Assembly: GCF_947563725.1 (NCBI RefSeq)
Contig: NC_079163.1
Span: forward strand, 54,630,922-54,694,921
Length of the DNA: 64,000 nucleotides
Direction: 5' to 3'
Source: Argiope bruennichi
Taxonomy: Eukaryota
Shown one piece after another: positions 1 to 58,841 of the stretch (within the stretch, counting starts at the first letter, position 1; each line of letters starts with the position of its first letter). The notes below the pieces were generated by a model that was given only the letters and a program-made list of their open reading frames with translations, was not told where the DNA came from and made no database searches. Both the position numbers and the translations under genes were made by a program.

Positions 1-1765
1 ATATCTGAGTGTATCTTGGTTCCTACTGGATGGATCGTAAAACTTCTCGAACTTCCCAATATGATCCATTTTGTCGCCAAGCCGCCAAATGATCGCCAAG
101 TCTGTCGCCAAGCTCTGAGTTCATTGAGCTCAACACGCACAGGACAGATCGTACAATGGTCTTTCTTACGATGACTCTATTCGTGATGGGTAGCAAAATT
201 ACAGATTTGTAACAATATTTATTCACTTCTATTACTGAAAAAACTTTTGAAAAATAAACGCATCAATATATAGATAGACCCTTAGTCTATTTCACACAAA
301 TCATTAAAAATATAATGAATCTCTTTTTCAGTTCAATAATTAATATTTGTAACTCATTTTATGAGAATCATAAAAAAAAGTAAATAGATATAACCTTCGA
401 AATTTCTTCCCAAATAAAAGCACCAATTATTTTCACAGATGTCTACTATTATTTAAATGGTAACAAATACAGTGACATTTATTTTATTCATCAAAACGGT
501 GCAGAACATCTATTAATTACATTTTTGTCATATTTGTTCCTTTTTCTATTTAAAAAAAATATAGACATCTTGAGTTATTTCATATTGAAGAAGGAAAATC
601 CAGTATTTCGAAGATTTTTCATAATTAAGAAGAAGTATTTTAAAATTTATTAGTTCTCTGATATTTATCCAAAAGTTTTATTATTTAAAAAAATTCATTG
701 TTTCAAAAAATTCATAATTAATAATGACACGTCTGTTTTCTTTCTCGGAGTAATGTTTATCTTGTTTTTAAAGGGAACTGACTAATCCGTTTATATTCTT
801 CCACGTATAAAAATTAAAATTTCGCAGTTTTAAAAATATCTAATCAACATCTGTAGAAAATATTTTTTAAAAATAATAATTGGAAAGTATCTATCGTGAT
901 AAAAATAACATGGACAGTAGCGATTAAAAAATACAGAGTGCATTCAAAAATACGAAACATTATAACAAATATTCTATTTTTCATCGTCTATACATTTGTC
1001 AATGTTTTAAAAATATGCTTTGTGGATTAAAAAGATCCAAAAATAATTTTTTCGTCAACAGTCTTAATGCACTTGCGTTTTAGTGGCTTTCTTATTAATT
1101 CACTTAATATTAAAATAAAAATTTATTGATGCATAACTCGGGTGGAATCGAATATGAAATAGAAAGTTAGCTTTGTAGATGTTTTCAATAAAGAAATCCA
1201 ATAAAAAAAATTTTCATTGTCACTTTTTCAAGTATTTGCTATTTCATTCGATCTGGTTCATAGTTGTACAGACAGAATTTTGAAATCGATTTTTCACTCC
1301 CTGTTAGGCTATAGTTTTGAATTTTCTTATGCGTTCTTGATAAAAGTACACTATTTCAATTTTTTTAGAACTTTTTTGTCAGATAATTTATGAATTTGTT
1401 TAAATTTTAATTCCATACTAGTGGAATTAAATAATTGGTAATGAATTTGAAAAAAGAAATTTGAAATCGCATAATATTTATACTAAATTTAAATTAAATG
1501 TAGGAAATAATTTTTAAACATTTTATTTTTTTTATTGCACAGTAAAAGTGAGATTTAAAAAACTGTTTTTTTATTTATCTTATTTATTACGTCATTACAC
1601 CAAAAATTCAATATGAATTCAATTTGAATAAACAATTCAACTTTCTGAACATTTTCAAAGAAAAGGGTTTTTCCCAAGTATACACCAAGTTATAAATTAT
1701 TATTATTATTTGAAGAATGCAAAGCTACACAAAAACTATTTTTAAAAAGTGAAATGATTCCTTAA

Positions 1766-2068
1766 CCGTTTCTAGGGCCGTGGGAAGTATGCTTCCCACC
1801 AAATTTATCAATCTTTGTATGAAATTATGTAGGTTAGCATAAGTTCTGACAAATTTTTTTAGTAAGTCAGAAACTTAGATGCTTCAGTTCTTTATCTCAG
1901 ACAAAATGATGTGTCTTGATTTGTTACTTAATTATTAATTAACCAAATTAATTAATTAATCAAATTAAATTTATCTAATAAGCTAAATGAATCCCTTTTC
2001 TTATTCTAATTTCAAGCCTAAAAATATTTTAACATAATATGACTATAAAAAAATTGCTCTTTAAAGGG
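1766..2068 (+). mobile_element. piggyBac-like MITE (non-autonomous, TTAA target, termini CCGTTTCTAGGGCC ... GCTCTTTAAAGGG), copy 1
   Basis: TTAA sits at 1762-1765 immediately 5' of CCGTTTCTAGGG. The 3' end is ...CTTTAAAGGG followed by TGAA, a degenerate TTAA. About 300 bp, AT-rich, non-coding. It is homologous over its full length to the minus-strand copies at 29019-29344 and 29349-29615. The terminal CCCTAGAAA-type motif matches the piggyBac terminal inverted repeat (TIR) start. Confidence 0.6.
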
Positions 2069-2145
2069 TGAAACTATGATCAAACAATACTGGTAATATT
2101 TCAGAAATCATTTTTTTTCATAAAGTCACATTTTTCCATCAGTGC

Positions 2146-4287: not shown

Positions 4288-4627
4288 GCAAAGTGGGCAA
4301 TGCGCGAAATCACGAATTCAGTACTTTCATAGCAAAAACTGAAAACGGAACTTAGTTTCTGGATGCCTGGTGTATAATATTGTCATAAAGTTTTGAAGAT
4401 TATTTGAAATTAAAAATATTATTTTCAAAGGAACAGAAAGCTGCTTTTATTCTTTTTTTGTCGAGAAGCCATCCAAATAAACCTTGGTGAAATTAGAACT
4501 GTTTCCGCCATCTCGAAGGAAATTTGGACCATGTGAATAAGTCGGGAAAGGTAGTGATTATGCATGTAATTTTTTTCTTCTACGTCTTACATTAAAATTT
4601 GATGATATATGCTAAAATAGGAAGTGT

Positions 4628-4928
4628 CATTATTATGCACGCGGCGATTTTTGTCATTATTATGTGCACGGCGATTTTTGTCATTATTATGTATACGGCG
4701 ATTTTTGTCATTATTATGTGCACGGCGATTTTTGTCATTATTATGTACACGGCGAGTTTTGTCATTATTATGTATACTGCGATTTTTGTCATTATTATGT
4801 TCACGGCGATTTTTGTCATTATTATGTATACGGCGATTTTTGTCATTATTCGATTGTCATTATTATGTACACGGCGATTTTTGTCATTATTATGTATACG
4901 GCGATTTTTGTCATTATTATGTACACAA
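4628..4928. repeat. 27-bp minisatellite, about 11 copies (unit CATTATTATGTRCACGGCGATTTTTGT)
   Basis: Units were counted directly. One truncated unit lies at 4851-4863. All listed ORFs at 4592-5017 are artefacts of this repeat. Confidence 0.9.
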
Positions 4929-5543
4929 GATTTTTTTTAAAAAGCGAGATTTGTGCGACCACATATCACCATGAACATGTGAACATAAAATGTCACTTTA
5001 ACAATTTTCTATGTTAGCTCTATTGCAGTTCATCAACACTACAAGTATAATTCTAGGCTATGATTAATAGGCAATCTACATAGCAAAGTCTGGTACATTT
5101 TAATGCAAATAGAGAACAAAATAAGAAAACTGTAAGGCATGTTTAAAAGTAGATGTTTTTAAAGAAATAATAATTTTAATATAGATACAGCAAAATAATG
5201 AATTAACACCTATGAAACTCTACAAAAGTTTATTACGGAAATGAAAACAGTATTTGACTCCGCTTATTTAATGAAATTTCATTTATGTCAAAAAAAATTA
5301 TTCATACCTAAATATAATAATAAAATAAATGTTAGTAAATAACTTAGAGAAAATATTATTAAAAAAATTGAAAGCTTTTATTATGTTAAAAAAATTGTGT
5401 CAACGATTATGCTTGGTTTAATTTCATTCAAATAAAATTCAATCTTTACATTTTTAATAGTATTTAGTTTCATTAAAGAAAAAAAAGATTTATTTTTAAA
5501 TATTAATAACAAAGAAAGTCGTTTAATATTTTTCAAGGCACAA

Positions 5544-5690
5544 AATGGAATTATTCTTTTAAAAAGTATCTTTTATTATTCTTTCACGTATGTATAAAGA
5601 ACTATGTCTAAAAAAATGGAATTATTCTTTTAAAAAGTATCTTTTATTATTCTTTCACGTATATATAAAGAACTATGCCTAAAAAAATTC
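5544..5690. repeat. tandem duplication of about 73 bp, 2 copies
   Basis: ATGGAATTATTCTTTTAAAAAGTATCTTTTATTATTCTTTCACGTAT(G/A)TATAAAGAACTATG(T/C)CTAAAAAA occurs twice head to tail. Confidence 0.75.
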
Positions 5691-6049
5691 ATTTGAATAA
5701 CAATGAACTTCTGTTTTTAGTTATAATAATAAGAAAAGAAGTAGTAAAGTGGTTTTGAACAAAATTGAAAGGAATATTTTTAATCAAAAGGCACAATTAT
5801 AATTAATTGTATAAAACGAAATACGGACATTTGGCTGGTAAACCCAAAACCGATGTCAGAATGACATTTAGAGATTAAGAATATTGTTATAAAAATAACT
5901 ATTGTTAAAATTATATGTAGAGAGAGACAGAGAGAGAAAGACATTATAATAATAATCAATATTAATAATGTAGCTTATTGTTATAATGTACTTTTTAAAA
6001 ATTAAGTAATTAATTTAATCATAGCCTACATTGCTGCTCAATATAAAAG

Positions 6050-6665
6050 GTAGTTGAATATACCAAAATATTATAACTTTTTTTAATAATAAAGTAACTT
6101 AAAATGCGGAAATTTAACTATTTACACCGTCGTAAACTCGTTTCTTAATGAACTCGTTAATGTAGCTAAACTTAAGATAGTAACCATCTTCATTTTGTAC
6201 CATTGTTTACAAATATAATAAAGCTTTGGCTACAATAATTTCCAAGATAGCAGATGTGAAAAGGCCCAAAGAGCTCTTCACACCAACTTAACTCGTAAGT
6301 ACCTTAATGTTTTACTAGGCTATACACTCGTTAATTTTGAATGTCTTCGCACTCTTTCAGGATGAGTGCTCTAAAAGGCTTACTGTTAATGGATAATTTG
6401 AGCATCTGCATTTGGTCAGTGAATGCATCTCCTTTAGGAAGTTCTTAAGCATGGTCATTTGTACTAAAATGATTCTATCTTTAAATGATGCCGATAATAT
6501 TTCTTATTCGAAATGCAGGTCTTATTTTGAACTAGTAGTGGATCATGAGTAGCTTTTCCTTCCTTAGATTTAGAACTTCGAAATTCTTAAATAACACTGC
6601 TGTTGAAATTCGTAAATTTTGCAAAAAGGAAAAGAAATGTTAGCATCTGAGCTCTGCAAAGTATT
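6050..6665 (+). repeat. dispersed segmental repeat of about 600 bp, copy 1 (partner at 8110-8715)
   Basis: It aligns co-linearly with 8110-8715. Identity is about 80-88% in the flanks, with a near-identical core of about 110 bp at 6346-6457. Confidence 0.75.
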
Positions 6666-8109
6666 ATTTTTTGATTTATAAACTATGCAAACTAAGTGAA
6701 GGAAAGTAAGAAATAACAAAAATAATTTGAAAAGTCCATTAGTGTTTAAAAAAATATAGTTCATAAAGCTTCTAGGCTTAATAAAATATAGTTCCAAGCA
6801 AAAATCGTTTCATTACGGTGTTTCATTAAAATGTAAAAAATCATTCCTTCTTAGACATATAAACATTGAACGAGATCATAAAATATTTTAAAGAAAGAAC
6901 ACATATAATAATGTTTTCAAAAAATTCATTATTATTAAAAGCGCTTGAAAAGAATAATGCCTAATTAAATTTCATTTCTGTAAAATTATTTTTCACATTA
7001 ATAAAGAAAGTGGTCGTAAAATATTCTGTTTGTTTTTTATAACATAAAGCTTCTTTAAAAATGGAAAATTCATTCTTTCAAAAAATATTGAAACAAAGGA
7101 TGTTAAGCGTTTAAGAGAAACACAAAATGATTTTCATAAAAAAAATTCTATTATTCGTAAAAGCTTGTGTAAGAATCATAAAAATATTCATAAGAAATAA
7201 AATTTCACTTCAGTAAACAAGAATTTTTATTTTTTATCATGTACATACAGAAAGAGATCAGAAAATAATTCTGGATGTAATGCAAGAGACTTTTTAATAC
7301 GTCTTTATTAGGATTAAATGTAGTAGTACGATTACTGTACAAATAATCTACAATTAAAATGAGAGTCTACATTTGAAGATTAAAAATATAACTTTTTGAC
7401 TAAAATGTAGTTTATTAAAATTTGATAATTAACTGAAAAAATTATAATGTACGGTATAGTTTCTATGCCAGGGAAAATAGATATATACTACAAAATGAAA
7501 AGAAAAAAAATGTTTTAAATAAATTGGAAAATTATTATTTAGGCCGTTTGAGTCGATAAATATAATATAGGAAAATTAATAATTTTAATTTTATCTTATG
7601 ATCTTATTAGCCATATTTAATAAAATATGCTTTACATGCTAATAATTTAAACAAAAAAAATCCATTCTTCTGTGTCCAAAACCGACTGAGTTATGAAGCA
7701 TTGAAAATCAATATTTCAAACGATTTTAGACCATTTTAATGACCTCTTAGTGGAAGACTCACAAAGAAAAGACCGACACTTGGTCATGGTAGCCGTTGAT
7801 TGGCTTAAAATAAATAAATTCCAAATTTATAGCTCGGTCGGTTTTGGTCTAATAAAAAAGAAGTATATTAAAATGCATATGTTATATGTATTATGCCATA
7901 TCTTTGTCAAAAATATTTAACTAAATATAATAATAGGATGAGAGCTCTGAATAAAAATTTAGAAATCTTAACTTTTGAACTCTACATTTATAGACTTAAA
8001 CAAACTATAAGATAATACTTTACGTCATTAAAAGCATTTTGCCGATTGGCATCTCTAATGGGTTAAAAATTAAGTATTCGGTAATGATTAGAGTGAATGC
8101 CTAATATAA

Positions 8110-8715
8110 TGTAGTTGAACATAGAAAGGTATTTTTTAATGATACATTTACTTAAAATGCTGAAATTCAACAATTTGAACCGTTCAAAACCGGTTTCTTA
8201 ATGAATTCGTTAGTGTTGTTACATTCCATCCTCAGTTTCTGCCATTGTTTACGAATACAATAAAGTCTTCGTTACTATAATTTCCAGAACGGTACATGTA
8301 AAATGGCCCAACGAGCTCTTCACACCAACTTTAACTCGTAAGTGCCTTAATGTTTTAGGAGGCTATACACTCGTTAGTTTTGACATTCCAGCACTCTTTC
8401 AGGATGAGTGCTCTAAAAGGCTTACTGTTAATGGATAATTTGAGCATCTGCATTTGGTCAGTGAATGCATCTCCCTTAGGAAGTTCTTAAGCACAGTCAT
8501 TTGTGCTAAAATGATCTCATCTTTAAATGATGCTGATAATATTTCTTATTCGAAATGGAGTTCTTATTTCGAACTAGTAATGGAATCATGAATGGCTTCC
8601 CTTCCTTAGATTTAGAACTCCGAACTTCTTAAATAATGTTGATGATGAAATGCAGATGAAATTCGTGAATTTTCCAAGCAGGGAAATAAATGTTAAAATC
8701 TCAACTCTACACTGA
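8110..8715 (+). repeat. dispersed segmental repeat of about 600 bp, copy 2
   Basis: See the copy at 6050-6665. The conserved core is at 8389-8500. Confidence 0.75.
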
Positions 8716-9380
8716 ATGATTGTTTCTTTTTAAAGTTAAATAAAATAAATCTTTATTTTATTATCAATCCATTTTATTATCACGTGTAATGATCATTAAT
8801 CGTCATATTATTCTATAATTAACTTTAAAGTCAAGAAAATATAAATGATGTACATATGCGAGATAACAATGTTTAAAATAAATTTTAAAGATTTTGTTTT
8901 TTCCAGGGAGAAAATTTATAATAAAATTATATATTTTAAATGTTAAATGGTATTTTTTTCCTTACTTTATTATTGTTTTTTTAAATGTCTTCGAACTAAT
9001 ATAAGTGTGGTTCTTTTTTACCCAGAGATTTTACCCCAAACTTCGAATTTCTTATCAGACGAAATGCATCTAAATTGCATAAATGTTATAACAATATCAA
9101 GAAAATTTGAAATTTAATTACAAAAAGACAAAAAAATGTTGGTTTTTTCGTAGGACAAATTTCGTAGCCTACGACATGCATATATATTCTACACGTTTTG
9201 TAACCATGTAAAGAAAATTTTAAATTTAGTTTTAAAAAACTGTTTATTATTTTCTGGGGAAAATCATTTTAAAATTGTTTATTTTTGATGGCTGCATTGT
9301 ATTTGATGCTTACTTTAAATTATTAATAAAATCTTGAGTCTATCCATTTTACTGGCATTTAAAACCTCAAAGCAACTCAA

Positions 9381-11215
9381 AAAATTATGATGGATGAAAC
9401 CCGGCATATGGTTTCATAACCATTACTGTAGATGTGCATCAACATTTGGACCGAATCCATCACAGGTGCGATTTTCTGTCAATATGCCTAACATGTGTAT
9501 ATGAAAAGGGCGAATCCAAAACACAAGCAAAAAGTATGATGGATGAAACCCGGCATATGGTTTCATAACCATTACTGTAGATGTGCATCAACTTTTGGAC
9601 CGAATCCATCACAAGTGCGATTTTCTGTCAATATGCCTAACATGTGTATATGAAAAGGGCGAATCCATCACAAGTGTGATTTTCTGTCAATATGCCTAAC
9701 ATGTGTATATGAAAAGGGCGAATCCAAAACACAAGCAAAAAGTATGATGGATGAAACCCGGCATATGGTTTCATAACCATTACTGTAGATGTGCATCAAC
9801 TTTTGGACCGAATCCATCACAAGTGTGATTTTCTGTCAATATGCCTAACATGTGTATATGAAAAGGGCGAATCCAAAACACAAGCAAAAAGTATGATGGA
9901 TGAAACCCGGCATATGGTTTCATAACCATTACTGTAGATGTGCATCAACTTTTGGACCGAATCCATCACAAGTGTGATTTTCTGTCAATATGCCTAACAT
10001 GTGTATATGAAAAGGGCGAATCCAAAACACAAGCAAAAAGTATGATGGATGAAACCCGGCATATGGTTTCATAACCATTACTGTAGATGTGCATCAACAT
10101 TTGGACCGAATCCATCACAAGTGTGATTTTCTGTCAATATGCCTAACATGTGTATATGAAAAGGGCGAATCCAAAACACAAGCAAAAAGTATGATGGATG
10201 AAACCCGGCATATGGTTTCATAACCATTACTGTAGATGTGCATCAACTTTTGGACCGAATCCATCACAAGTGTGATTTTCTGTCAATATGCCTAACATGT
10301 GTATATGAAAAGGGCGAATCCAAAACACAAGCAAAAAGTATGATGGATGAAACCCGGCATATGGTTTCATAACCATTACTGTAGATGTGCATCAACTTTT
10401 GGACCGAATCCATCACAAGTGTGATTTTCTGTCAATATGCCTAACATGTGTATATGAAAAGGGCGAATCCAAAACACAAGCAAAAAGTATGATGGATGAA
10501 ACCCGGCATATGGTTTCATAACCATTACTGTAGATGTGCATCAACTTTTGGACCGAATCCATCACAAGTGTGATTTTCTGTCAATATGCCTAACATGTGT
10601 ATATGAAAAGGGCGAATCCAAAACACAAGCAAAAAGTATGATGGATGAAACCCGGCATATGGTTTCATAACCATTACTGTAGATGTGCATCAACATTTGG
10701 ACCGAATCCATCACAAGTGTGATTTTCTGTCAATATGCCTAACATGTGTATATGAAAAGGGCGAATCCAAAACACAAGCAAAAAGTATGATGGATGAAAC
10801 CCGGCATATGGTTTCATAACCATTACTGTAGATGTGCATCAACTTTTGGACCGAATCCATCACAAGTGTGATTTTCTGTCAATATGCCTAACATGTGTAT
10901 ATGAAAAGGGCGAATCCAAAACACAAGCAAAAAGTATGATGGATGAAACCCGGCATATGGTTTCATAACCATTACTGTAGATGTGCATCAACTTTTGGAC
11001 CGAATCCATCACAAATGTGATTTTCTGTCAATATGCCTAACATGTGTATATGAAAAGGGCGAATCCAAAACACAAGCAAAAAGTATGATGGATGAAACCC
11101 GGCATATGGTTTCATAACCATTACTGTAGATGTGCATCAACATTTGGACCAAATCCATCACAGGTGCGATTTTTTGTCGATATGTCTAACATGTGTATGT
11201 GAAAAGGCGAATCCA
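9381..11215. repeat. 149-bp satellite array, about 12 units
   Basis: The period was measured from recurring landmarks: AAAGTATGAT starts at 9739, 9888 and 10037, giving 149 bp. Units alternate between CAACATTTGG and CAACTTTTGG variants. One unit, at about 9600-9720, carries an internal 58-bp duplication. The edge units are more diverged. Confidence 0.9.
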
Positions 11216-11379
11216 AAACAGAACGAGTGTATTGAGTTTAGAATGCTTTATGATTCCTTGGCGCCAAAAATATTAATTTCGGAATCATGCCTATCTCTGA
11301 ACCCAATAACACAAAAGCTCAATGAACTTGAAAGATAAACTATATACGGGCTTTTTACTTAAAAAATTTGGACTTCTTC

Positions 11380-22182: not shown

Positions 22183-22326
22183 TCCTCCCTCTGGTGTGGT
22201 GTGAAAGTTTGGAGAGTGGGTGCTAGCTAAGTTGTCGTCCTCATCATCTGACCGTGGTTCAGAATTACGAGGTCCGTCCCAAAATATCCCTATTATTGCT
22301 TTAAAAATGGACATTAATATAACTGA
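22183..22326 (+). mobile_element. tRNA-derived SINE family 1, 5'-truncated copy (3' half only)
   Basis: It aligns to 32680-32810 of the full copy: CTGGTGTGGTGTGAAAGTTTGGAGAGTGGGTGCTAGCT...GGTCCGTCCCAAAATATCCCTATTATTGCTTTAAAAATGGACATTAATATAACTGAA. Confidence 0.7.
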
Positions 22327-23397
22327 ATTGACTGCATTCATAAGCTGATTTGTTGCAATTATTCCTTTTTATTCGATTTTTTGATATGATAAACCGCCTG
22401 TTTTTAGTTCAGTTATGCAGTATCTTTCGTAGCTTCTATTTCTTTTATTTATTTTTATCATATTTACAAATTCTACATCTATAAAATATATATACTAAAT
22501 TATCTTTATGACAAGTTTTCAGTATTACGTTATTATCAGTTTTTAGTAACTTGTAAGATTTTTTTTTTATTTCGCATCTGCTTTTATAAAAGTTTTATCA
22601 TTATTCCACCGTGACAATGTTTAACGGCATTAAAATGTTGCGTAAAAGGGACTCTGCAACACAAAATTATGCAAAAGTATACAAAACTAGAAAGATTTAA
22701 GACAGAGAATTTTGAAAGAAAGTCATTGTAGAGTGATGTTTTTCAAAATGGCTTCAAGGAAAGGTTTTCGCTTATACTAATATTGTCTCAAGATATGCTA
22801 TATATTTGTTAACAATATTGTGCTATTATTTATTTGTTAATTTTAATATATCATACATTATAACAACAAATTCAAAATGGAAAACTTTACACTTGACGTG
22901 CCTTAAAAATTTGTTTTGAAACCCTGCTATCATATTCTTATTGAGTTAAGATATTTTGATTTTTAATATAAAACTTATATTACTTGTAATGTACACCGGT
23001 TCTCTCGCTTTCAATGTATTAAATCTCACCTAATTTATTCATTAAATGTGCATCTCCTATCATTAACTTATACAACTTCCACATACTTTTACAAATCAAA
23101 TTTCATTATGAAACTACGGCATTTTTTAATGAATAATCTTTTTCATTGAATGAAATATTTTTGAGAAACCATGTAAGAAAATTATCTTTTGTTGAAATTC
23201 ATCCAAGATCAACCAGACGTCCTTTATTCTGGCCTTTTAAAATGGAATTAATAAATATGAAGTATGGAATATTTAAATATCATTTCAAAGATGCCTACGG
23301 TGATAAAAAGAAAACGTAGAATTTAACTGAAATTTACGAAACTTTTCAAAATATGTAAATGTATAATTTATGAGGATAGAGAAAAAAGAATTAAATT

Positions 23398-24550
23398 TTA
23401 GGTGATGCAGTATGTAGCTTAAAAGTTTTCGTAATATATTTACAATCAAATGTTTTAAATCAAAATATTAATCTTGAATAATTAAAATATACTAATTTCC
23501 GAATTTTGTTCACTTTCTCACGTTTCCAATAATTATTTTACCATCAAACTTTCAGAAAACCATATTTCTGCCACAGAAGGTAGCAGAAAATATTTCAAAA
23601 TGCTTAGTTTTTACTTCAAATTATTAAATTTTAGGTGATGTAGTATGTAGCTTAAAAGTTTTCGAAATATATTTACAATCAAATGTTTTAAATTAAAATA
23701 TTAATCCTGAATAATTAAAATATACTAATTTCCGAATTTTGGTCACTTTCTCACGTTTCCAATAATTATTTTACCATCAAACTTTCAGAAAACCATATTT
23801 CTGCCACAGAAGGTAGCAGAAAATATTTCAAAATGCTTAGTTTTTACTTCAAATTATTAAATTTTAGGTGATGTAGTATGTAGCTTAAAAGTTTTCGAAA
23901 TATATTTACAAGCAAATGTTTTAAATCAATATATTAATCTTGAATAATTAAAATATACTAATTTCCGAATTTTGGTCACTTTCTCACGTTTCCAATAATT
24001 ATTTTACCATCAAACTTTCAGAAAACCATATTTCTGCCACAGAAGGTAGCAGAAAATATTTCAAAATGTTTAGTTTTTACTTCAAATTATTAAATTTTAG
24101 GTGATGTAGTATGTAGCTTAAAAGTTTTCGTAATATATTTACAATCAAATGTTTTAAATCAAAATATTAATCTTGAATAATTAAAATATACAAATTTCCG
24201 AATTTTGGTCACGTTCTCACGTTTCCAATAATTATTTTACCATCAAACTTTCAGAAAACCATATTTCTGCCACAGAAGGTAGCAGAAAATATTTCAAAAT
24301 GTTTAGTTTTTACTTCAAATTATTAAATTTTAGGTGATGTAGTATGTAGCTTAAAAGTTTTCGTAATATATTTACAATCAAATGTTTTAAATCAAAATAT
24401 TAATCTTGAATAATTAAAATATACAAATTTCCGAATTTTGGTCACGTTCTCACGTTTCCAATAATTATTTTACCATCAAACTTTCAGAAAACCATATTTC
24501 TGCCACAGAAGGTAGCAGAAAATATTTCAAAATGTTTAGTTTTTACTTCA
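23398..24550. repeat. 233-bp tandem repeat, about 4.9 copies
   Basis: The landmark TTAGGTGATG recurs at 23398, 23631, 23864, 24097 and 24330, an exact 233-bp period. Units are more than 95% identical. Confidence 0.9.
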
Positions 24551-29018: not shown

Positions 29019-29344
29019 CCCTTTAAAGGGCCATTTTTTTCTAGTAATGGTATTTTAACCCTTTAATGGGCCATTTTTTTCTAGTCATATTGTGTTAAAA
29101 TATTTTTAGGCTTAAAATTAGAATAAGAAAAGGGATTCATTTAGCTTATTAGATAAACTTAATTTGGTTAATTAATAATTAAGTAACAAATCAAGACACA
29201 TAATTTTGATTGAGATAAAGAACTGAAGCATTTAAGTTTCTGTCTTTCTAAAAAAATTTATCTGAACTTATGCCAACCTACATAAATTCATACAAAGATT
29301 GATAAATTTGGTGGGAAGCATACCTCCCACGGCCTTAGAAAGGG
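29019..29344 (-). mobile_element. piggyBac-like MITE copy 2, with TTAA on both flanks and a tandemly duplicated terminal 40 bp
   Basis: TTAA lies at 29015-29018 and 29345-29348. The termini are CCCTTTAAAGGGCC... and ...GGCCTTAGAAAGGG. It is the reverse complement of copy 1 (1766-2068) at about 90% identity. The 40-bp terminal segment at 29015-29054 is repeated at 29055-29094. Confidence 0.65.
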
Positions 29345-29348
29345 TTAA

Positions 29349-29615
29349 AATTTCAGAATTCAGAGACTTAAGAAAAGGAATTCATTCAATTTATTACATA
29401 AATATAATTTGATTCATTAATTAATTTTGTTAATTAATAATATAATAAATCAAGATGCATTATTTTGTTTGAGATAAGAAGCTGGGGCATCCAAGTTTCT
29501 GCTTTATTGAAAATTTGTGAGAATATCTGCAAGACTACATAACTGCATACAAAGATTGATGAATTTGGTGGGAATTTAAGAAACCCAGTATGTTACTGTC
29601 ATCCCTAGAAAAGGG
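29349..29615 (-). mobile_element. piggyBac-like MITE copy 3, adjacent to copy 2, one end truncated, carrying an internal insertion of about 28 bp
   Basis: The right terminus is ...CCCTAGAAAAGGG at 29603-29615, followed by TTGA. The internal sequence aligns to copy 2 at about 80%. Confidence 0.55.
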
Positions 29616-32541
29616 TTGACAGTAACATAAGCATTAATTGTTTTAATATCAGTAACGAGGGGAAAACGCTTTCAAGAATAGCAATGACAAATAAATGTTT
29701 TTGACGAAATGAGGAATAAAGATAATTGGGATGACTTCCACAGTACCAATTATTATTTTTTCAAAATATAAAAGATTAATACAACTAAAAAATGCATTAA
29801 AGTTTTACTTCTTTAACTTGCAAAAGCCCAATATGTGCTTTAATATAACATTATAAATACGAAATTGGGTTTTCATTTTAATTTTCTCGTATTAAAACAG
29901 AACTACTTCGGTTCTCATTCCAGTGATCACTGGTAGGACAGAAATACTTCAGTTACAACGACAAATGGAATAAAATCCAAAAACAAATATGGCAAATCAG
30001 CTCGGGAATATTGAAATCTCAACATTTGTGGTTTTCATAAGTGTTCTTTGAAAATTTTCGTTTAGGATTATAAAAAAAATGCGGAAAAAGAGAAAATGCA
30101 TGGATCTGCCACATCATGGTAAACAAGTTCTGAAACAGTCATATTGATATTATCCATTGAACATTTCATTATCAAGGATGAAAATTTAAGGCATGTGACT
30201 TAAGTTCAAGAGGACTTTTTTGAAAAACGTCCAAAAATAGTTATATTTTTGAATATTTGTATAAAAAAAAATTGTAAAAACGTCTATGAAACCAAAATGC
30301 ACCAATAAAGAGGCAAATGTTTATGGAAAACGAAAAAAAAATTATTCTTTTGCAAAAAAGAGGTCTGGAGCAAATATCTTCTAGTTTAGAAATTTATCAA
30401 ATGGTTTGCTTAAAATTTTGCAGATAATTTAAGAAATAGATTATCTAGTTCCTTAGCTAAAAACTAAGCATTATTGTTATCTATTCTCTAAACAGTGGAG
30501 TTTGACTGATAAATAACAAGAAATTTTCAATTTTTTTATCACATTATGAAGCATTAAAACAATTATATTTCTAAATAAATAGATTACTTATTCTCTAGTT
30601 CAGGAACTGCAGAACATATTGAGAAATTATTATACCAAATTGGAACAAAAATATACATTACATTTTAATTTGATAAAATTCCTTCAAAGATTAGAATTTG
30701 AGAAAAAAGCATCTAAAACTGTAAAAAAAAGCATTAAAAAAGTAAGGAAATGCAAATATAAAAATCAGTGTAACCTCCCAAAAAATAGACTTAAAAACAA
30801 AACTCTAACGGTTTTATAAAGAAATCTGTTCAAACATTAAGAATAGCAAATTAAAAAACAATTGATAAATTCGCAAAAAATCGACTTTTTGCCGTAGTCA
30901 CTAGCCTTAATTATGTAGAAATTATTTCTAAGCCATATTCATCTAATCCCAAGATATAGTTTTCGTATACCTTAAGAAAAGGTTGATTACCAATACCGTA
31001 GATCATTTCCGTTTTTGAAATAAGCTATAATCAGCAAAGAATATGGGAGTTAAAATAAATACTAAGATTGAAGAGATAAGAATTAGTTGTGTTGATTCAT
31101 GCAAATAATTAATTTATAATATTAAACTGATTTAGTTTCGCATTAAAATTCTTTTCATTTTGCAGACTTTACTTCTACAGACATCAGAAGTAAACGCTAA
31201 ATTTCGGCAAAAAATTGATACAAATTCGGCCTTGATTTGATACCTTAATTTTATTTCATTGTAAATATGGTTTCTTGAAATAAATTTGGAAGAAAGATAG
31301 ATATATTCCACTGTTTGATTTGTTTTTAAAAAGATTAAATTTTATTCCATCTTCAAATTAATAGTCAGAAAAATATGTTATAAAACAAATGAGTCGGTTT
31401 GCAAATTGCGAAAGAATCCCTAGTTCACATGTTTATTAATTAGAAATAACGATTTAGATTATAGCGTCATTATTCTAGAGATAAAAATATTAATTCCTCG
31501 AAATATTAAAAGCATAGATTTTTTAACAGAAACGGAAAGTTAGAAGTCATTTCCTCAAAGCAAACACGCCAGTAATGAATAATTAAAATAGTTGATAAAA
31601 TGAAAGATTGCTTCTAAGAACGGTTTTTATAAAACTTAATACATCTGCCTATATAAAATAAACACCTTTAAATTGCGTAAAATGAGATTTTCAAAATCCA
31701 CATTAAAATCAAAATTTAAAAGATGCTAAGACACATAAATGCATATTTTTCAAATTAATTGAATTTCGTTGAAAAAATGAGCTTTAATGTTAATTAATTT
31801 TTACCACTTTTCATCTTTTACAATATTGAAAATTATTCTATTAAGTTTCTAGAAATATTTCTATTCTTGAATTCTCTCTAGCTAGTAAAACGAGGTAATA
31901 AAATTTAAGAATGTTACTGAATCAAAAGTTAAAATGTAAAAGGACATCTTAGCTTGCATAACTTAAGTGCATGGAATTTTTAAAAATATCACTTTTTTAC
32001 ACTAAATAACTTTATTTGAACATACACAATGCATTTTTGCTGGCAAACAGCCCAGATTTAATAATGCCTCGAGCAGCATCTAAGATATCTCAGGCAATTT
32101 AAAAGAAATATTCTGTAGCTTTCTAATTTGCTTATCTCATAGTAAAATTCACAAGACTTTATTACATATCATGTATTGCAACGATTCTTCATTTTTTATT
32201 ACTTATGTCACAAAAATGTAAATTGCTTGTGTGAAACATTTTAAAGTTAGCATTTCATAGGCGATAACAAAAATTTTGAATAAAAAAACAACCTTCTTGT
32301 CAGGTCATTTATTTTAAGTTTAAAGTTCTTCCAATTTAAAAGATACCTAAATTAAAACGACTTATTCAGTTAGTAAGAAACATAATTTTTTTAACACAAT
32401 GAGGGGAATACTTGCTTCCTTCAATTCTTTAATATTATTTAGAATTATTGAATACAAAATTTGAGTATAATACAAAAAAAAAAATATTCTTTGAAAATCT
32501 CGTTCATCAATTTAAATAGCTATTTTCCACCTTACCACCTA

Positions 32542-32810
32542 GGGCCGCAGTGGTCTGGTGGTAAGGTTTCGGCTTCGGAACCGGAGAGTTTCAGGTACGA
32601 GACCCGATTCCACCGAAGAACCGTCCTGTAAGCGGGTCTGGTGCACGTTCGTCGGGGTCAAACGACCTCCCACCGGTGTGGTGTGGAAGTTTGGAAAGGG
32701 GTTGCAAGCTCAGGTGTCGTCCTCGTTATCTGACTGCGGTTCAAAATTACAAGGTCCGTCCCAAAATAGCCCTAGTGTTGTTTTAAAACGGGATGTTAAT
32801 ATAACTAAAC
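32542..32810 (+). mobile_element. tRNA-derived SINE family 1, full-length reference copy of about 270 bp
   Basis: The tRNA-like head GGGCCGCAGTGGTCTGGTGGTAAGG...GGTACGAGACCCGATTCC has an A box (TGGTCTGGTGG) and a B box (GGTACGAGACC). The conserved body is ...GGTGTGGTGTGGAAGTTTGG...GGTCCGTCCCAAAATAGCCCTAG... and the 3' end is GTTAATATAACTAAA. At least 8 other copies occur in the window. Confidence 0.8.
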
Positions 32811-32847
32811 ATAGGCTCCTAAAATTCCGATATCGTAGAGCAAACCT

Positions 32848-32982
32848 CCTGCCTTTGGTGTGGCGCACAAGTTTGGACAGGGAAGCGATAGCTTAAGTGT
32901 ATTCCTCTTCATCTGACCTAAGGCTCAAAATTAAAGACTCTTGTGTTGCTTCAGAATAAGGCGATAATATAATTAAATTCCT
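32848..32982 (+). mobile_element. SINE family 1, partial copy (3' half), lying 40 bp downstream of the full copy
   Basis: CCTCCTGCCTTTGGTGTGGCGCACAAGTTTGGACAGGG...CTCAAAATTAAAGACTC...ATAATATAATTAAAT aligns to the SINE 3' half. Confidence 0.65.
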
Positions 32983-35092: not shown

Positions 35093-35346
35093 TGCAGGAT
35101 TCCAAGTTCGAGACCCGATTCCATTAAAGATCCGTCGCGTATGCAGCCCTATTGCACGTTAAATCTGGCGTTGAGTGCCAAATGTTCTTCCGTTGGTGTG
35201 GTGCGGAAATTTGAAGAAGTGGTGCCAGCTCAGGTATCTTCCTCTTCATTTGACCAGGGTTCGAAATTTCAAGGTCCATTCCAAAATAGCCCTTATATTG
35301 CTTCCTAACGGAATGTTAATATAACTAAACTAAACTAAACTAAACT
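35093..35346 (+). mobile_element. SINE family 1 copy, 5'-truncated by about 40 bp, with an (AAACT)4 tail
   Basis: ...TCCAAGTTCGAGACCCGATTCCATTAAAGATCCGTCGCGTATGCAG...GGTCCATTCCAAAATAGCCCTTAT...GTTAATATAACTAAACTAAACTAAACTAAACTG. Confidence 0.75.
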
Positions 35347-44974: not shown

Positions 44975-45284
44975 TGTATAACACTGTACTCAGTTCAATC
45001 CCGTTTCAAAGTAGCACTAGGGCTATTTTGGAACCAATTTATGATGAGAACGACGCCTGAGCTGGCACCCTCTCTTTTAACATCCGCACCACCCACAACC
45101 ACCGACAGATGGTGCCTATCTGTGGTTGTGGCACCACACCAGTGGGATGACATTTGGCCCCGACGGATTTAATATGCACAATGCCCGCTTACACGACTGT
45201 ACTTCGATGGATTCGGGGTTCGAACCTGAAACTCTAAGTGTTCCGAAACCGAGACCTTATAACCAGGCCACCGAAACCCTCGCC
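44975..45284 (-). mobile_element. SINE family 1, full-length copy on the minus strand
   Basis: The reverse complement gives GGCGAGGGTTTCGGTGGCCTGGTTATAAGGTCTCGGTTTCGGAACACTTAGAGTTTCAGGTTCGAACCCCGAATCCATCGAAG...GGTGCCAGCTCAGGCGTCGTTCTCATCATAAATTGGTTCCAAAATAGCCCTAGTGCTACT. Confidence 0.75.
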
Positions 45285-49721: not shown

Positions 49722-49871
<150 letters not shown>

Positions 49872-50519: not shown

Positions 50520-50720
50520 GAAAATGTCCGTCCGTCCTTCTTTCTGTGACAAATATAACTCAAAAACGCTTTGATCTAGAGGGTTGAAATTTGGTATACG
50601 GTCTTTGCACAAAATATGCAGAATCAATTTTTGAAAAACTGTGTTTGCCCGGCAATTCGAATATAAATTAACACGATAATTACAAAAATGAAGGCATGGT
50701 ATATGTAGTAAAAACGTGAA
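50520..50720 (+). repeat. interspersed repeat family D, copy 2
   Basis: See 44085-44480. Confidence 0.5.
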
Positions 50721-51012
50721 ATTAACACCAAAAGTTAATATTTCGTATCTATTGTACGTCAATGCCATGTGAAGCATTCTCTGTTAAAAATGTTAAATTC
50801 ACGCCAAAAGTTAATATTTCGTAACTATTGTACGTCAATGCCATTTGAAGCATTCACTGTTAAAAATCTTAAATTCACGCCAAAAGTTAATATTTCGTAA
50901 CTATTCTACGTTAATGCCATGTGAAGCATTCACTGTTAAAAATCTTAAATTCAAGCCAAAAGTTAATATTTCGTAACTATTCTACGTCAATGCCATGTGA
51001 AGCATTCTCTGT
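50719..51012. repeat. 76-bp minisatellite, about 3.9 copies (unit AAATTCACGCCAAAAGTTAATATTTCGTAACTATTGTACGTCAATGCCATGTGAAGCATTCACTGTTAAAAATCTT)
   Basis: The period was measured as 76 bp: unit starts at 50719 and 50795. Confidence 0.85.
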
Positions 51013-51099: not shown

Positions 51100-52410
51100 C
51101 ATTAGTATCCAAAAGTGATTTTATCAACAACATGACTTATTAGAGAAATATTATGGCCTTTGTATAAATAATAGAGTAGGAAATAATATTTGCTACAAAT
51201 CCAATATTCCTAACAAATTGAGTTTTCATGCTACTTCACAAATTCAGTGCTCGATTCCAAACAACTCAATTCAATACAGTTATCTGCAAACACAGACGAT
51301 AATGTGTTTTCATACATTATCGTAAACACCATCAATAATGTGTTTAAAGGTCACATATATATTAATTATTCGCTTGAATTTACATGTTTCTTTGTCAACG
51401 GGTTAATCCAATGGCACAAACACTTTCAGATGGAAGCCGTCGTTGGATAACCCATTTCGCTTTCAACACAACCTTTCTAATTCCATTTGCTTACAAATTA
51501 ATCTATTCAAGTCTTCCAGGAAACGATTTCGTGTCTCTTTTCAAAGCAGCCCATATAAATTATTCCGAATTAATTCCACAAATTAAATCGCAAATCATCG
51601 CGACGAATTCGATATCTAAAATGTGGTTTTTCGAAAATCTCGGCAACACTTATAAACAATAATCCTTATCAAATGAGTTAATACCTTAATCATGGTATGA
51701 ATTCTTTTAGGGACCTTTTCACTTTTGCCACAACATATTCGCGGCGATGACAATGCAAGGATTTCGGATATTTTTATCTGAAAACGAATCTGCTTTGCAT
51801 TCGCTTTTCAGAGTCATTAATTTCTCAGATCCCCGTGAAAGAATTTAAGATATTTCTAACGCGTTGATTATTAAGAAAGCTCGTTTTAGAAACAAACATC
51901 ATTTATTTTCGCTAAAAAGATTTTCATTGTTGTCCGATTTTGTTTCGAATCGACTTTTGAAATGTAAACGAGGTGGTGTTAAAGTTCGTCTGGAACTTAA
52001 AATGCTTGTAATTTGTGGTAAGTGTAGCATATGAAATAGTAAGAAATAGTCCGTGAAATGGTTTTAAAAGCTTGATATATCTCTTTGTATTTACATATTT
52101 TAATTTTATAAATTTTATTTGAAAATCACTTACTGAAAAATAACTTATCAAGATCTCCATTAATTCATGACTTCACCAGAACAGGAAATAGTGTTATTTG
52201 ATCGTTTGAGTAAAAATATACCTCTATTGTTGAAAGAAACTTGAAAGACAGATTAGATACGAAATATTATATAAAAATTCTACATATAAGTCGATCCAAA
52301 AACAATTTTTCTTTGCTATGAAGCCCTTTCTTTTCTATAAAAAGTTAGACGCACAAAGCTTTTAAAACTACCATACAGATTTTTTTTCTAGTACATATAA
52401 AATTATAGCA

Positions 52411-52685
52411 GGACCGTGGTGGCCTGATGGTAAGGTATCGGCTTCAGAACCGGAACGTTTCAGGTTCCAGACCCGATTCCACCAAAGAACCGTCGTGTAA
52501 GCGGGTCTGGGGCAGGTTAAATCTGTCGAAGCCAAACGTCCTCCCGCTGGCGTGGCGTGAAAGCTTGAGCTGGCACCTCAGGTGTCATCCTCGTCCGCTG
52601 ACCGCAGTTCAAAATTACAAGATCCGTCCTAAAAAAAAACTTAATGTTGCTTTAAAAAGAGACGTTAATATAACTATACTAAAAA
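52411..52685 (+). mobile_element. SINE family 1, full-length copy
   Basis: GGACCGTGGTGGCCTGATGGTAAGGTATCGGCTTCAGAACCGGAACGTTTCAGGTTCCAGACCCGATTCCACCAAAG...GGTGTCATCCTCGTCCGCTGACCGCAGTTCAAAATTACAAGATCCGTCCT...GTTAATATAACTATACTAAAA. The A and B boxes are intact. Confidence 0.8.
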
Positions 52686-58683: not shown

Positions 58684-58841
58684 CATCATCATCATCATCA
58701 TTTCATTAATCATCATTATCATCATTTCATTAATCATCATTATCATCATTTCATTAATCATCATTATCATCATTTCATTAATCATCATTATCATCATTTC
58801 ATTAATCATCATTATCATCATTTCATTAATCATCATTATCA
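58684..58841. repeat. 24-bp minisatellite x about 6.5 (unit CATTTCATTAATCATCATTATCAT), preceded by (CAT)6
   Basis: Read directly. The ORFs at 58654-58926 on both strands are artefacts. Confidence 0.9.

What the first reader, a model, noticed from the sequence alone, without database searches (positions are those of the whole stretch)
6346..6457. A core of about 110 bp that is near-identical between two copies of a duplicated 600-bp segment whose flanks are only about 80-88% identical
Copies at 6050-6665 and 8110-8715 have diverged substantially, with many substitutions and indels. However, GCACTCTTTCAGGATGAGTGCTCTAAAAGGCTTACTGTTAATGGATAATTTGAGCATCTGCATTTGGTCAGTGAATGCATCTCC(T/C)TTAGGAAGTTCTTAAGCA is identical apart from one synonymous-position change. 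The copy at 8389-8500 is the partner core. The core starts with an acceptor-like TCTTTCAG|G and contains a 28-codon ORF, MSALKGLLLMDNLSICIWSVNASPLGSS, identical in both copies. A donor-like CTCG|GTAAGT lies about 70 bp upstream in both copies. This local conservation suggests purifying selection on a small exon, a small-peptide ORF or a structured ncRNA, or else recent gene conversion limited to the core.
Basis: seen in the sequence. Interest (0 to 1): 0.5.

Follow-up and report, generated by a model that had tools for sequence, protein, structure and literature searches.

The report
Identity island in a duplicated spider segment
Two old, diverged copies of a 650-bp non-genic-looking segment in a spider-like genome share a 103-bp stretch that is still virtually identical. 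That stretch coincides with a splice-acceptor-like site plus a complete 28-codon small ORF, so it is either a small conserved exon or a gene-conversion patch, and both are ordinary kinds of thing.

Summary
There are two direct copies, 6040-6690 and 8103-8740, at 80% identity overall, and the window holds no other copy. They share a 103-bp island, 6349-6451 = 8391-8493, with one T/C difference. Permutation gives p<5e-6 against the whole unit and 0.002 against the best-conserved 265 bp.

Identity is a mosaic: about 71% in the outer parts, about 90% on a plateau at 6259-6600, and 99% in the island.

- **Structured RNA:** not supported. Rfam finds nothing, folding z-scores run from +1.0 to -1.1 (one subregion reaches -2.0), and there are no box motifs or mirtron hairpin.
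- **Known protein:** none. No frame has a relative among 5.8 billion proteins.
- **Plus-strand gene-like layout:** a donor CTC|GTAAGT, a 66/65-nt gap, then a strong acceptor CTCTTTCAG|G 12 nt inside the island's left edge. ATG follows 2 nt later, and TAA lies 3 nt before the right edge. An ORF filling the island this well occurs in 2.2% of shuffles. Equally good donor/acceptor pairs are rare in the window.

My best reading, at 0.42, is a small exon with a sORF under constraint, possibly helped by conversion. A neutral gene-conversion tract is nearly as likely, at 0.33. Only RNA-seq or comparison with other species can decide. Interest is low to moderate.

The parts
6040..6690 (+). Copy A of the duplicated ~650-bp unit
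   Evidence: blastn 6079-6682 vs 8132-8734, 81.4%. nhmmer finds only these two copies. Global re-alignment gives 80% identity including gaps.
8103..8740 (+). Copy B of the duplicated unit, a direct repeat starting about 2.06 kb downstream of copy A
6349..6451 (+). Identity island, copy A: 103 bp with 1 difference (T6433 vs C8475)
   Evidence: Permutation p<5e-6 over the unit and 0.002 over the central 265 bp. GC is 40% against 29% for the window.
8391..8493 (+). Identity island, copy B
6362..6448 (+). 28-codon sORF MSALKGLLLMDNLSICIWSVNASPLGSS* (copy A). The ATG lies 2 nt after the acceptor junction, and the TAA ends 3 nt before the island's right edge.
   Evidence: An ORF filling >=87/103 nt occurs in 2.2% of dinucleotide shuffles and in 2.2% of GC-matched genomic windows. 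The exact peptide is not in the 15-billion-protein collection.
8404..8490 (+). The same sORF in copy B, with identical peptide and one synonymous change (CCT>CCC)
6295..6360 (+). Putative 66-nt intron of copy A: donor CTC|GTAAGT, acceptor CTCTTTCAG|G (inferred, not shown)
   Evidence: PWM ranks and pair counts. It is not a hairpin or mirtron: -4.1 kcal/mol, z +0.98.
8338..8402 (+). Putative 65-nt intron of copy B
6259..6600 (+). Plateau of about 90% identity (substitutions only) around the island. Identity outside it is about 71-72%.
6339..6345 (.). 7-bp micro-inversion: GAATGTC in copy A against GACATTC at 8382-8388 in copy B. It abuts the island's left edge.

Best explanation
Each copy of the duplicated unit carries a small plus-strand exon boundary. 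A short intron (donor CTC|GTAAGT at 6295/8338, acceptor CTCTTTCAG|G at 6360/8402) opens into an exon that starts with a complete 28-codon small ORF (6362-6448 / 8404-8490).

The 103-bp island is then the polypyrimidine tract and AG of the 3' splice site plus the whole sORF. Purifying selection on the splice site and the peptide kept it unchanged while the intron, the upstream exon and the downstream untranslated sequence drifted. Occasional gene conversion between the two nearby copies may have helped.

**Shown:** the island, its statistical excess, the intact identical ORF, the splice-like motifs in both copies, and the absence of RNA structure.

**Inferred:** that the unit is transcribed and spliced, that the ORF is translated, and that selection rather than conversion made the island.
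For: 1. **The island edges coincide with functional-looking edges.** The left edge lies 12 nt upstream of the acceptor AG, and the right edge 3 nt after the TAA. A complete ATG..stop ORF covering >=87 of 103 nt is seen in only 2.2% of dinucleotide shuffles, and in 2.2% of GC-matched windows of this genome.
2. **The splice signals are strong and conserved in both copies.** The donor is in the top 1.3-2.2% of 5774 GTs. The acceptor is in the top 0.13-0.9% of 6005 AGs with window-composition backgrounds. GTAAGT lies 45-100 nt upstream of a TTTCAG for 3 of 83 TTTCAGs, and 2 of those 3 are these copies. Pairs at least this good and 50-150 nt apart number 2 to 7 elsewhere in 128 kb of strand with window-composition backgrounds.
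3. **Only the + strand shows this.** Minus-strand candidate acceptors rank in the top 37-49% only.
4. **The substitution pattern fits coding constraint.** There are 0 changes in 65.7 non-synonymous sites and 1 in 18.3 synonymous sites. Against the 9.3% substitution rate of the surrounding plateau, about 2 changes are expected at synonymous plus flanking sites and about 9.6 over the whole island, against 1 observed (Poisson arithmetic is my own).
5. **Composition and structure fit an unstructured exon.** The island is GC-richer than its surroundings (40% vs 29%) and, as RNA, less structured than shuffles (z +0.84, +1.04).
Against: - No transcript, ribosome or peptide evidence is available.
- None of the frames has a relative among 5.8 billion proteins, and there is no Pfam domain. 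The exact peptide is absent from 15 billion sequences, although 28-aa ORFs are rarely annotated.
- Spider genes typically have long introns, with means of 8-9 kb (PMC4273655). A 66-nt intron is atypical there.
- The putative upstream exon is not conserved as an ORF. A 1-bp indel at 6287 shifts the frame, and the ATG at 8303 of copy B is AGG in copy A.
- The intron's first 45 nt (about 90% identical) are better conserved than the outer parts of the supposed exons (about 71%). That fits nested conversion tracts more naturally than a gene model.
- If the outer flanks (22-24% substitutions) are the neutral standard, 1 synonymous change is on the low side: P(<=1) = 0.06-0.12.
- With a uniform-background PWM, about 22 other pseudo-introns in the window score as well. 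The PWMs were written from memory.
Confidence: 0.42

Rival explanations
1. Neutral non-allelic (interlocus) gene conversion. The two copies are non-functional duplicated DNA. A recent short conversion tract of about 85-105 bp copied one copy onto the other. An older tract of about 340 bp produced the ~90% plateau. On this reading the ORF and the splice-like motifs are coincidental, or relics.
For: - Identity is step-like and nested: about 71%, then about 90%, then 99%.
- The edges are very sharp. The left one abuts a 7-bp micro-inversion plus an indel, a heterology that would end a heteroduplex.
- The island is identical at synonymous and non-coding positions too. Only 1 change falls in about 34 putatively neutral sites, P = 0.002-0.04 if the 13 nt before the ATG are counted as neutral.
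- The tract size is typical. Interlocus tracts run from 50 to several hundred bp (PMC3924818), with a mean of about 250 bp and GC bias (10.1101/135152). The island is GC-enriched.
- The copies are only 2 kb apart and in direct orientation.
- There is no homologue, no domain and no RNA family.
Against: - It needs conversion between copies whose local identity was already about 90%, with perfect runs of at most 23 bp. Conversion slows as duplicates diverge (10.1101/135152).
- It needs the tract to coincide by chance with an intact ATG..TAA ORF (2.2%).
- It also needs the tract to start just upstream of a top-1% acceptor that has a top-2% donor 66 nt upstream.
Confidence: 0.33
2. A functional non-coding DNA or RNA element that does not depend on stable folding. 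Examples are the first part of a lncRNA exon, a splicing-regulatory block, or a transcription-factor-binding module. It would be conserved at the nucleotide level in both copies.
For: - Conservation extends to synonymous and non-ORF positions.
- The island contains the acceptor and a second acceptor-like CTCC(T/C)TTAG|G at 6436/8478.
- A flanking plateau at about 90% could be additional weaker constraint.
Against: - Nothing positive identifies such an element.
- 103 bp with one change exceeds what most regulatory modules show.
- It does not explain why the island ends at the stop codon.
- No Rfam family matches.
Confidence: 0.14
3. A structured small RNA gene (miRNA, mirtron, snoRNA or snRNA-like) whose sequence is the island.
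For: - Two small local hairpins exist: GCACTC/GAGTGC at 6349-6369, and UGCAUUUG/UGAAUGCA at 6408-6428.
- An imperfect 17-bp inverted repeat pairs 6283-6306 with 6376-6393.
- The minus-strand fold of 6278-6398 has z = -2.04.
- A GGAUGA motif and an AAUUUGA (Sm-like) motif were seen by eye.
Against: - Rfam finds nothing at gathering scores. The best sub-threshold hits are 13-21 bits against cut-offs of 45-120.
- z-scores of the island and of its extensions are +0.64, -0.03, -0.70, -1.07, -0.53, -1.13, +0.84 and +1.04. The one value of -2.04 does not survive about 10 tests, and the inner hairpin of that fold is destroyed by the micro-inversion in copy B.
- No CUGA D box lies on the + strand and no UGAUGA C box on the - strand (read).
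- The 66-nt intron is unstructured in copy A.
- There are no compensatory changes.
Confidence: 0.03
4. A minus-strand coding exon, for example 6461 down to 6384 with donor ACA|GTAAGC, reading ...MLKNFLKEMHSLTKCRCSNYPLT.
For: - Two minus-strand frames are open through most of the island.
- The donor-like ACA|GTAAGC is in the top 4% of GTs.
- There is a weak Pfam zf-C2HCIx2C hit at E = 0.13.
Against: - Candidate acceptors rank in the top 37-49% only.
- Conservation runs 35 nt past the donor.
- The single island difference is non-synonymous (K>R) in that frame.
- The flanking codons of that frame show 4 amino-acid changes against only 2 synonymous nucleotide changes (6453, 6492).
- There is no homologue, and the Pfam hit is below its cut-off (12.7 vs 19 bits).
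Confidence: 0.03

Closest known systems
Interlocus (non-allelic) gene-conversion tracts between nearby duplicates, i.e. concerted evolution as detected by GENECONV-type tests
   Same: An unusually long run of identity lies inside otherwise diverged paralogous sequence. Its length is within the reported range of 50 to several hundred bp (PMC3924818; 10.1101/135152). The edges are sharp, the island is GC-enriched, and the copies are 2 kb apart in direct orientation.
   Different: The surrounding identity (about 90% locally, about 71% further out) is low for efficient conversion. The tract coincides with an intact sORF and a splice-acceptor-like site, which conversion alone does not predict.
Small-ORF (micropeptide) genes with duplicated sORFs, e.g. 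Drosophila sarcolamban (28- and 29-aa peptides from one transcript) and tarsal-less/pri (recalled from memory, not checked here)
   Same: A very short ORF of 28 codons is present in two nearby copies with an identical peptide. Conservation is confined to the ORF, and no protein domain is recognisable.
   Different: No transcription or translation evidence exists here, and no cross-species conservation could be tested. The two copies are separate units 2 kb apart, not sORFs within one shown transcript. The peptide has D and N inside its hydrophobic stretch and is not an obvious transmembrane helix.
Gene families in which one short exon stays nearly invariant while the rest diverges, e.g. signal-peptide exons of toxin gene families, which cluster by tandem duplication in spiders (PMC4273655)
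   Same: The arrangement is tandem duplication with one short, nearly invariant hydrophobic N-terminal-like segment (MSALKGLLLMDNLSICIWSVNA|S...) and diverged surroundings.
   Different: The ORF stops after 28 codons, with no conserved good donor to continue it. No mature-peptide exon and no toxin homology were found.

Membership tests
Interlocus gene-conversion tract | A run of identity between paralogues significantly longer than expected from their overall divergence (GENECONV criterion) | tested here: met
   84-bp exact run and 103 bp with 1 mismatch. Permutation p<5e-6 over the unit and 0.002 over the central 265 bp.
Interlocus gene-conversion tract | Phylogenetic incongruence: within a species the paralogues are more alike in the tract than each is to its orthologue in a related species | not testable with these tools
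   No other spider genome could be searched by DNA. The 27- and 32-mers of the island are absent from the metagenome collection, and the 27-mer from the prokaryote-genome and viral collections.
Interlocus gene-conversion tract | Tract length within the empirical range and GC-biased composition | tested here: met
   103 bp against a range of 50 to several hundred bp. Island GC is 40% against 27-31% in the outer flanks. Neither feature is specific to conversion.
Protein-coding small exon / sORF gene | Intact ORF with start and stop conserved in all copies | tested here: met
   ATG 6362 to TAA 6448 and 8404-8490, identical 28-aa product. Chance expectation is 2.2%.
Protein-coding small exon / sORF gene | Excess of synonymous over non-synonymous change (dN/dS << 1) | tested here: inconclusive
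   0 non-synonymous changes in 65.7 sites and 1 synonymous change in 18.3 sites. The direction is right, but one substitution gives no power, and conversion gives the same picture.
Protein-coding small exon / sORF gene | Canonical splice signals at the exon boundary, conserved between copies | tested here: met
   Donor in the top 1.3-2.2%. Acceptor in the top 0.13-0.9% with window-composition backgrounds. Both are present in both copies, and few equally good pairs occur in the window. The PWMs were approximated from memory.
Protein-coding small exon / sORF gene | Evidence of transcription, splicing or translation | not testable with these tools
   No RNA-seq, Ribo-seq or proteomics is available.
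Protein-coding small exon / sORF gene | Homologues in other genomes or proteomes | tested here: not met
   No hit for any of six frames at E<=0.01, nor for the four open frames at E<=10, among 5.8 billion proteins. The exact ORFs are not in the collection. No Pfam domain was found.
Known structured RNA families (Rfam: miRNA, snoRNA, snRNA, others) | Covariance-model score at or above the family's gathering threshold | tested here: not met
   0 matches in the whole window at gathering scores. Only 13-21-bit noise appears at E<=10.
Structured ncRNA in general | Folding energy below that of shuffled sequence, and/or compensatory base changes | tested here: not met
   z-scores from +1.04 to -1.13 for the island and its extensions, with one subregion at -2.04. 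0 compensatory pairs.
LTR pair of an LTR retrotransposon | TG...CA termini, target-site duplication, a primer-binding site after the 5' LTR and a polypurine tract before the 3' LTR | tested here: not met
   Read directly. There is no TGG-type primer-binding site after 6690, no polypurine tract before 8103, and no consistent TG/CA ends or target-site duplication. The 1.4-kb interior has no ORF over 56 aa.

The most novel reading that the evidence does not exclude
The two units are tandem paralogues of an orphan, lineage-specific micro-gene in a spider. A two-exon transcript with an unusually short 66-nt intron would have, as its only conserved product, a 28-residue hydrophobic micropeptide (MSALKGLLLMDNLSICIWSVNASPLGSS). 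That peptide is kept invariant in both copies while everything else in the gene has diverged by 10-30%.
Probability: 0.3. Interest if true: 0.4.

Novelty: new member of a known kind. Interest (0 to 1): 0.25.

Why it matters
If the exon/sORF reading is right, this is an unannotated, tandemly duplicated micropeptide gene in a spider genome. Such a gene is invisible to homology-based annotation and was found only through paralogue comparison. That would be a modest but useful addition to the small-ORF catalogue.

If the conversion reading is right, it is a routine example of a short interlocus conversion tract in non-coding DNA. Its only interest would be that it occurred between copies already about 10% diverged locally.

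Either way it does not touch an open question. The locus mainly illustrates that an identity island between two paralogues cannot, on its own, separate selection from conversion.

Tried and rejected
- **Known RNA families.** Rfam found nothing at gathering scores over the whole window. At E<=10 over 3 kb and over 241 bp it returned only noise. There are no tRNAs.
- **Thermodynamic structure.** The island, the island plus flanks, and a possible 179-nt Pol III-type transcript ending at the first T4 run were all folded. None is significant, and there are no compensatory changes.
- **Mirtron.** The 66-nt intron of copy A folds at only -4.1 kcal/mol.
- **C/D or H/ACA snoRNA, U7/Sm-class snRNA.** Only partial motifs are present (GGAUGA, AAUUUGA, a CCAACT 6-mer upstream). 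There is no D box on the same strand and no Rfam support. This idea was dropped.
- **Protein homology.**
  - A six-frame composite of 6060-6700 and the four frames open through the island gave no hits.
  - Pfam gave only zf-C2HCIx2C at E = 0.13, below its cut-off.
  - Ten other window ORFs had no Pfam domain.
  - Exact look-up of 10 ORFs found none in the collection.
- **Other copies elsewhere.** blastn and nhmmer find no third copy in the window. Exact 27- and 32-mers of the island are absent from the metagenome collection, and the 27-mer from the prokaryotic-genome and viral collections. These collections are not expected to hold spider DNA, so this says little.
- **LTR-retrotransposon reading of the two direct repeats.** There is no primer-binding site, polypurine tract, target-site duplication or TG..CA ends. 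Rejected.
- **Independent insertion of a 103-bp mobile element into both copies.** The flanks are collinear on both sides, and the island has no terminal inverted repeats or target-site duplication. Rejected.
- **Minus-strand exon.** The acceptors are poor.

Full report
**Context**

The window is AT-rich (26-36% GC in 2-kb windows, 29% overall). It has no tRNA and no Rfam match. It has no long ORFs other than repeat-derived ones. It contains several satellites and a dispersed SINE-like repeat.

An ORF inside that repeat (32543-32893) matches hypothetical proteins of the spider Araneus ventricosus at 56% and 47% identity. I therefore treat the window as spider, or close chelicerate, nuclear DNA. 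That is an inference, not an identification. Spider genomes are reported to have short exons and long introns, with means of 8-9 kb (PMC4273655).

**Checking the observation**

The quoted sequence occurs exactly twice, at 6349-6451 and 8391-8493 on the + strand. It is an exact 84-bp run, one T/C difference (6433/8475), then 18 more identical bases.

It sits inside a direct duplication: 6079-6682 vs 8132-8734 at 81.4% by blastn. The window has no third copy by blastn or nhmmer. A global re-alignment extends homology to about 6040-6690 / 8103-8740, at 80% identity including gaps, and shows a mosaic:

| Region | Identity |
|---|---|
| 6040-6258 | 71% |
| 6259-6338 | 91% |
| 6339-6348 | scrambled |
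| 6349-6451 (island) | 99% |
| 6452-6520 | 89% |
| 6521-6600 | 76% (89% counting substitutions only; contains an 11-bp indel) |
| 6601-6690 | 72% |

The scrambled 10 bp is largely a 7-bp micro-inversion, GAATGTC against GACATTC.

Permuting the mismatch positions never reproduced the 84-bp run over the whole unit (0 of 200,000). Within the best-conserved 265 bp it did so with p = 0.002. Against the plateau's substitution rate (21/227 = 9.3%), about 9.6 changes are expected in the island and 1 is seen. That gives a Poisson P of about 7e-4 (my arithmetic).

The island is 103 bp. The flanks are a mosaic of 71-91%. The donor-like motif is CTC|GTAAGT.

**Structured RNA**

No Rfam family reaches its gathering score anywhere in the window. 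Permissive searches of 3 kb and of 241 bp around the island give only 13-21-bit noise.

Minimum free energies are indistinguishable from dinucleotide shuffles:
- island: z +0.64 on the + strand and -0.03 on the - strand
- 271-nt plateau: -0.53 and -1.13
- a hypothetical 179-nt transcript ending at the first T4 run: -0.70 and -1.07 in the two copies
- the exon part alone: +0.84 and +1.04

One subregion reaches z = -2.04 on the minus strand. That is one of about ten folds, and one of its inner hairpins is abolished in copy B by the micro-inversion.

RNAalifold finds no compensatory pair. The 66-nt interval between donor and acceptor is not a mirtron hairpin. C/D, H/ACA and Sm-type motifs are incomplete. 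I regard the structured-RNA reading as not supported.

**Known protein or domain**

No frame is open across all 103 bp. A composite of all six frames of 6060-6700 gave no hit at E<=0.01 among 5.8 billion proteins. The four frames open through most of the island gave no hit even at E<=10.

Pfam gave only a sub-threshold zinc-finger match on the minus strand, at E = 0.13. The exact small ORFs are not in the 15-billion-sequence collection. Between the copies, the flanking codons of every frame change about as often as neutral sequence would. So there is no homology support for an exon. A 28-residue ORF would rarely be annotated anywhere, however.

**Gene-like anatomy on the plus strand**

In both copies, reading from left to right:
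- a donor-like CTC|GTAAGT (G at 6295 / 8338)
- 66 / 65 nt later, CTCTTTCAG|G (AG at 6359-60 / 8401-02)
- ATG 2 nt after the junction (6362 / 8404)
- TAA 28 codons later (6446-48 / 8488-90)

The island starts 12 nt before the AG and ends 3 nt after the TAA. It is therefore nearly coextensive with "3' splice site plus sORF".

Three tests bear on this:

1. **ORF fit.** A complete ATG..stop ORF of >=87 nt inside a 103-nt block occurs in 2.2% of dinucleotide shuffles of the island. It occurs in 2.2% of GC-matched 103-nt windows of this sequence.
2. **Splice-site scores.** I used position weight matrices written from memory (Drosophila-like and human-like). The donor ranks in the top 1.3-2.2% of all 5774 GTs on both strands. 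The acceptor ranks in the top 0.13-0.9% of 6005 AGs with window-composition backgrounds, and 0.9-3.6% with a uniform background. Besides these two, donor/acceptor pairs at least this good and 50-150 nt apart number 2, 7 or about 22 in 128 kb of strand. The largest figure comes from the uniform background, which merely rewards T-richness. By simple motif count, 3 of 83 TTTCAG sites have GTAAGT 45-100 nt upstream, and two of those are these copies.
3. **Strand asymmetry.** The minus strand has a donor-like ACA|GTAAGC (top 4%), but its candidate acceptors rank in the top 37-49% only.

Together these make a chance origin of the plus-strand layout unlikely. The probability that such a pair has its acceptor in the first 15 nt of the island is roughly 5e-4 to 5e-3, depending on the matrix. 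The caveat is that the features were noticed before they were tested.

**Selection or conversion**

The sORF has 65.7 non-synonymous sites with 0 changes and 18.3 synonymous sites with 1 change.
- If the plateau rate (9.3%) is the local neutral rate, about 2 changes are expected at synonymous plus the three trailing sites. One observed is unremarkable, and the deficit is entirely at non-synonymous and splice-site positions, as coding constraint predicts.
- If the outer flanks (22-24%) are the neutral standard, about 4 synonymous changes are expected and P(<=1) = 0.06-0.12. That is low but not excluded.

A recent conversion tract explains the same numbers without any function, and several features favour it:
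- The size is typical: 50 to several hundred bp (PMC3924818), with a mean of about 250 bp, GC bias, and slowing as duplicates diverge (10.1101/135152).
- The island is GC-enriched (40% vs 29%).
- The edges are sharp, and the left one lies against a micro-inversion.
- The nested profile of 71%, 90% and 99% looks like successive tracts. In particular, the first 45 nt of the supposed intron are better conserved than the outer parts of the supposed exons.

Against a purely neutral conversion:
- The copies were already about 10% diverged locally, with perfect runs of at most 23 bp.
- The tract would have to coincide by chance with the ORF and the acceptor.

The two mechanisms are not exclusive. A constrained exon that is also occasionally homogenised fits everything.

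**Verdict**

I give 0.42 to a small plus-strand exon, made of a 3' splice site plus a 28-codon sORF, kept by purifying selection with or without conversion. I give 0.33 to a neutral conversion tract in non-functional duplicated DNA. I give 0.14 to some other sequence-level non-coding function, about 0.03 each to a structured RNA and a minus-strand exon, and the remainder to chance or something not considered.

Nothing here can be assigned a biochemical function. The peptide (MSALKGLLLMDNLSICIWSVNASPLGSS) is hydrophobic, but it has D and N in the middle of its hydrophobic stretch, and no recognisable family.

The finding is a real feature of a known kind, either a paralogue identity island or a candidate sORF exon. 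Its interest is low to moderate. RNA-seq junctions and orthologous loci in related spiders would settle it.

Noticed in passing
window 6339-6345 vs 8382-8388: A 7-bp micro-inversion between the two copies (GAATGTC vs GACATTC) lies directly against the left edge of the identity island. It accounts for most of the apparent hypervariable 10 bp there.
   Followed up: yes
window 6283-6306 and 6376-6393: An imperfect inverted repeat of about 17 bp pairs the plus-strand donor-like TTAACTCGTAAGTACCTT with AAGGCTTACTGTTAA inside the island. Read on the minus strand, the second arm gives the other donor-like ACA|GTAAGC. Both arms are conserved in both copies. The folding z-score is only -1.06 (+ strand) and -2.04 (- strand).
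   Followed up: partly
window 7654-7869: A MITE-like structure sits in the spacer between the two copies: 44-nt arms, 70% complementary, around a core GTCCAAAACCGACTGAG / CTCGGTCGGTTTTGGTC, 128 nt apart. A similar CCAAAACCGA motif occurs at about 5845.
   Followed up: no
window 22183-22327, 32541-32810, 35100-35334, 45134-45272 (-), 52410-52683: A dispersed SINE-like repeat occurs at 70-83% identity between copies. Its ORF (e.g. 32543-32893) matches hypothetical proteins of the spider Araneus ventricosus (56% and 47% identity), which suggests that the window is spider DNA.
   Followed up: partly
window 9380-11220: A 149-bp satellite of more than 10 copies at 98% identity starts about 640 bp downstream of copy B. 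Variant 59- and 208-bp registers appear at its 5' edge.
   Followed up: no
window 23390-24550: A tandem array of 5 copies of a 233-bp unit at 98% identity.
   Followed up: no
window 4625-4935: A 27-bp minisatellite (TGTCATTATTATGTACACGGCGATTTT, more than 8 copies) creates spurious ORFs of 113-133 aa in several frames.
   Followed up: no
window 1762-2076 vs 29051-29348 (inverted), also 1793-2003 vs 29369-29574: A pair of inverted repeats about 300 bp long, 82-88% identical and 27 kb apart. The far copy is itself locally duplicated (29124-29317 / 29369-29574).
   Followed up: no
window 8303-8305 vs 6260-6262: Copy B has an ATG in a good context (AAAATGG). After the putative splice it would extend the sORF to 40 aa (MAQRALHTNFNS + 28 aa). 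Copy A has AGG there, plus a 1-bp deletion at 6287, so only the 28-codon ORF is shared. Both copies also keep a minimal start-stop uORF just upstream (ATGTGA in A, ATGTAA in B).
   Followed up: partly
window 49722-49870; 58677-58841; 50719-51012; 5542-5688: A (GT)74 microsatellite, a 24-bp repeat with 6.9 copies, a 76-bp repeat with 3.9 copies, and a 71-bp repeat with 2.1 copies.
   Followed up: no
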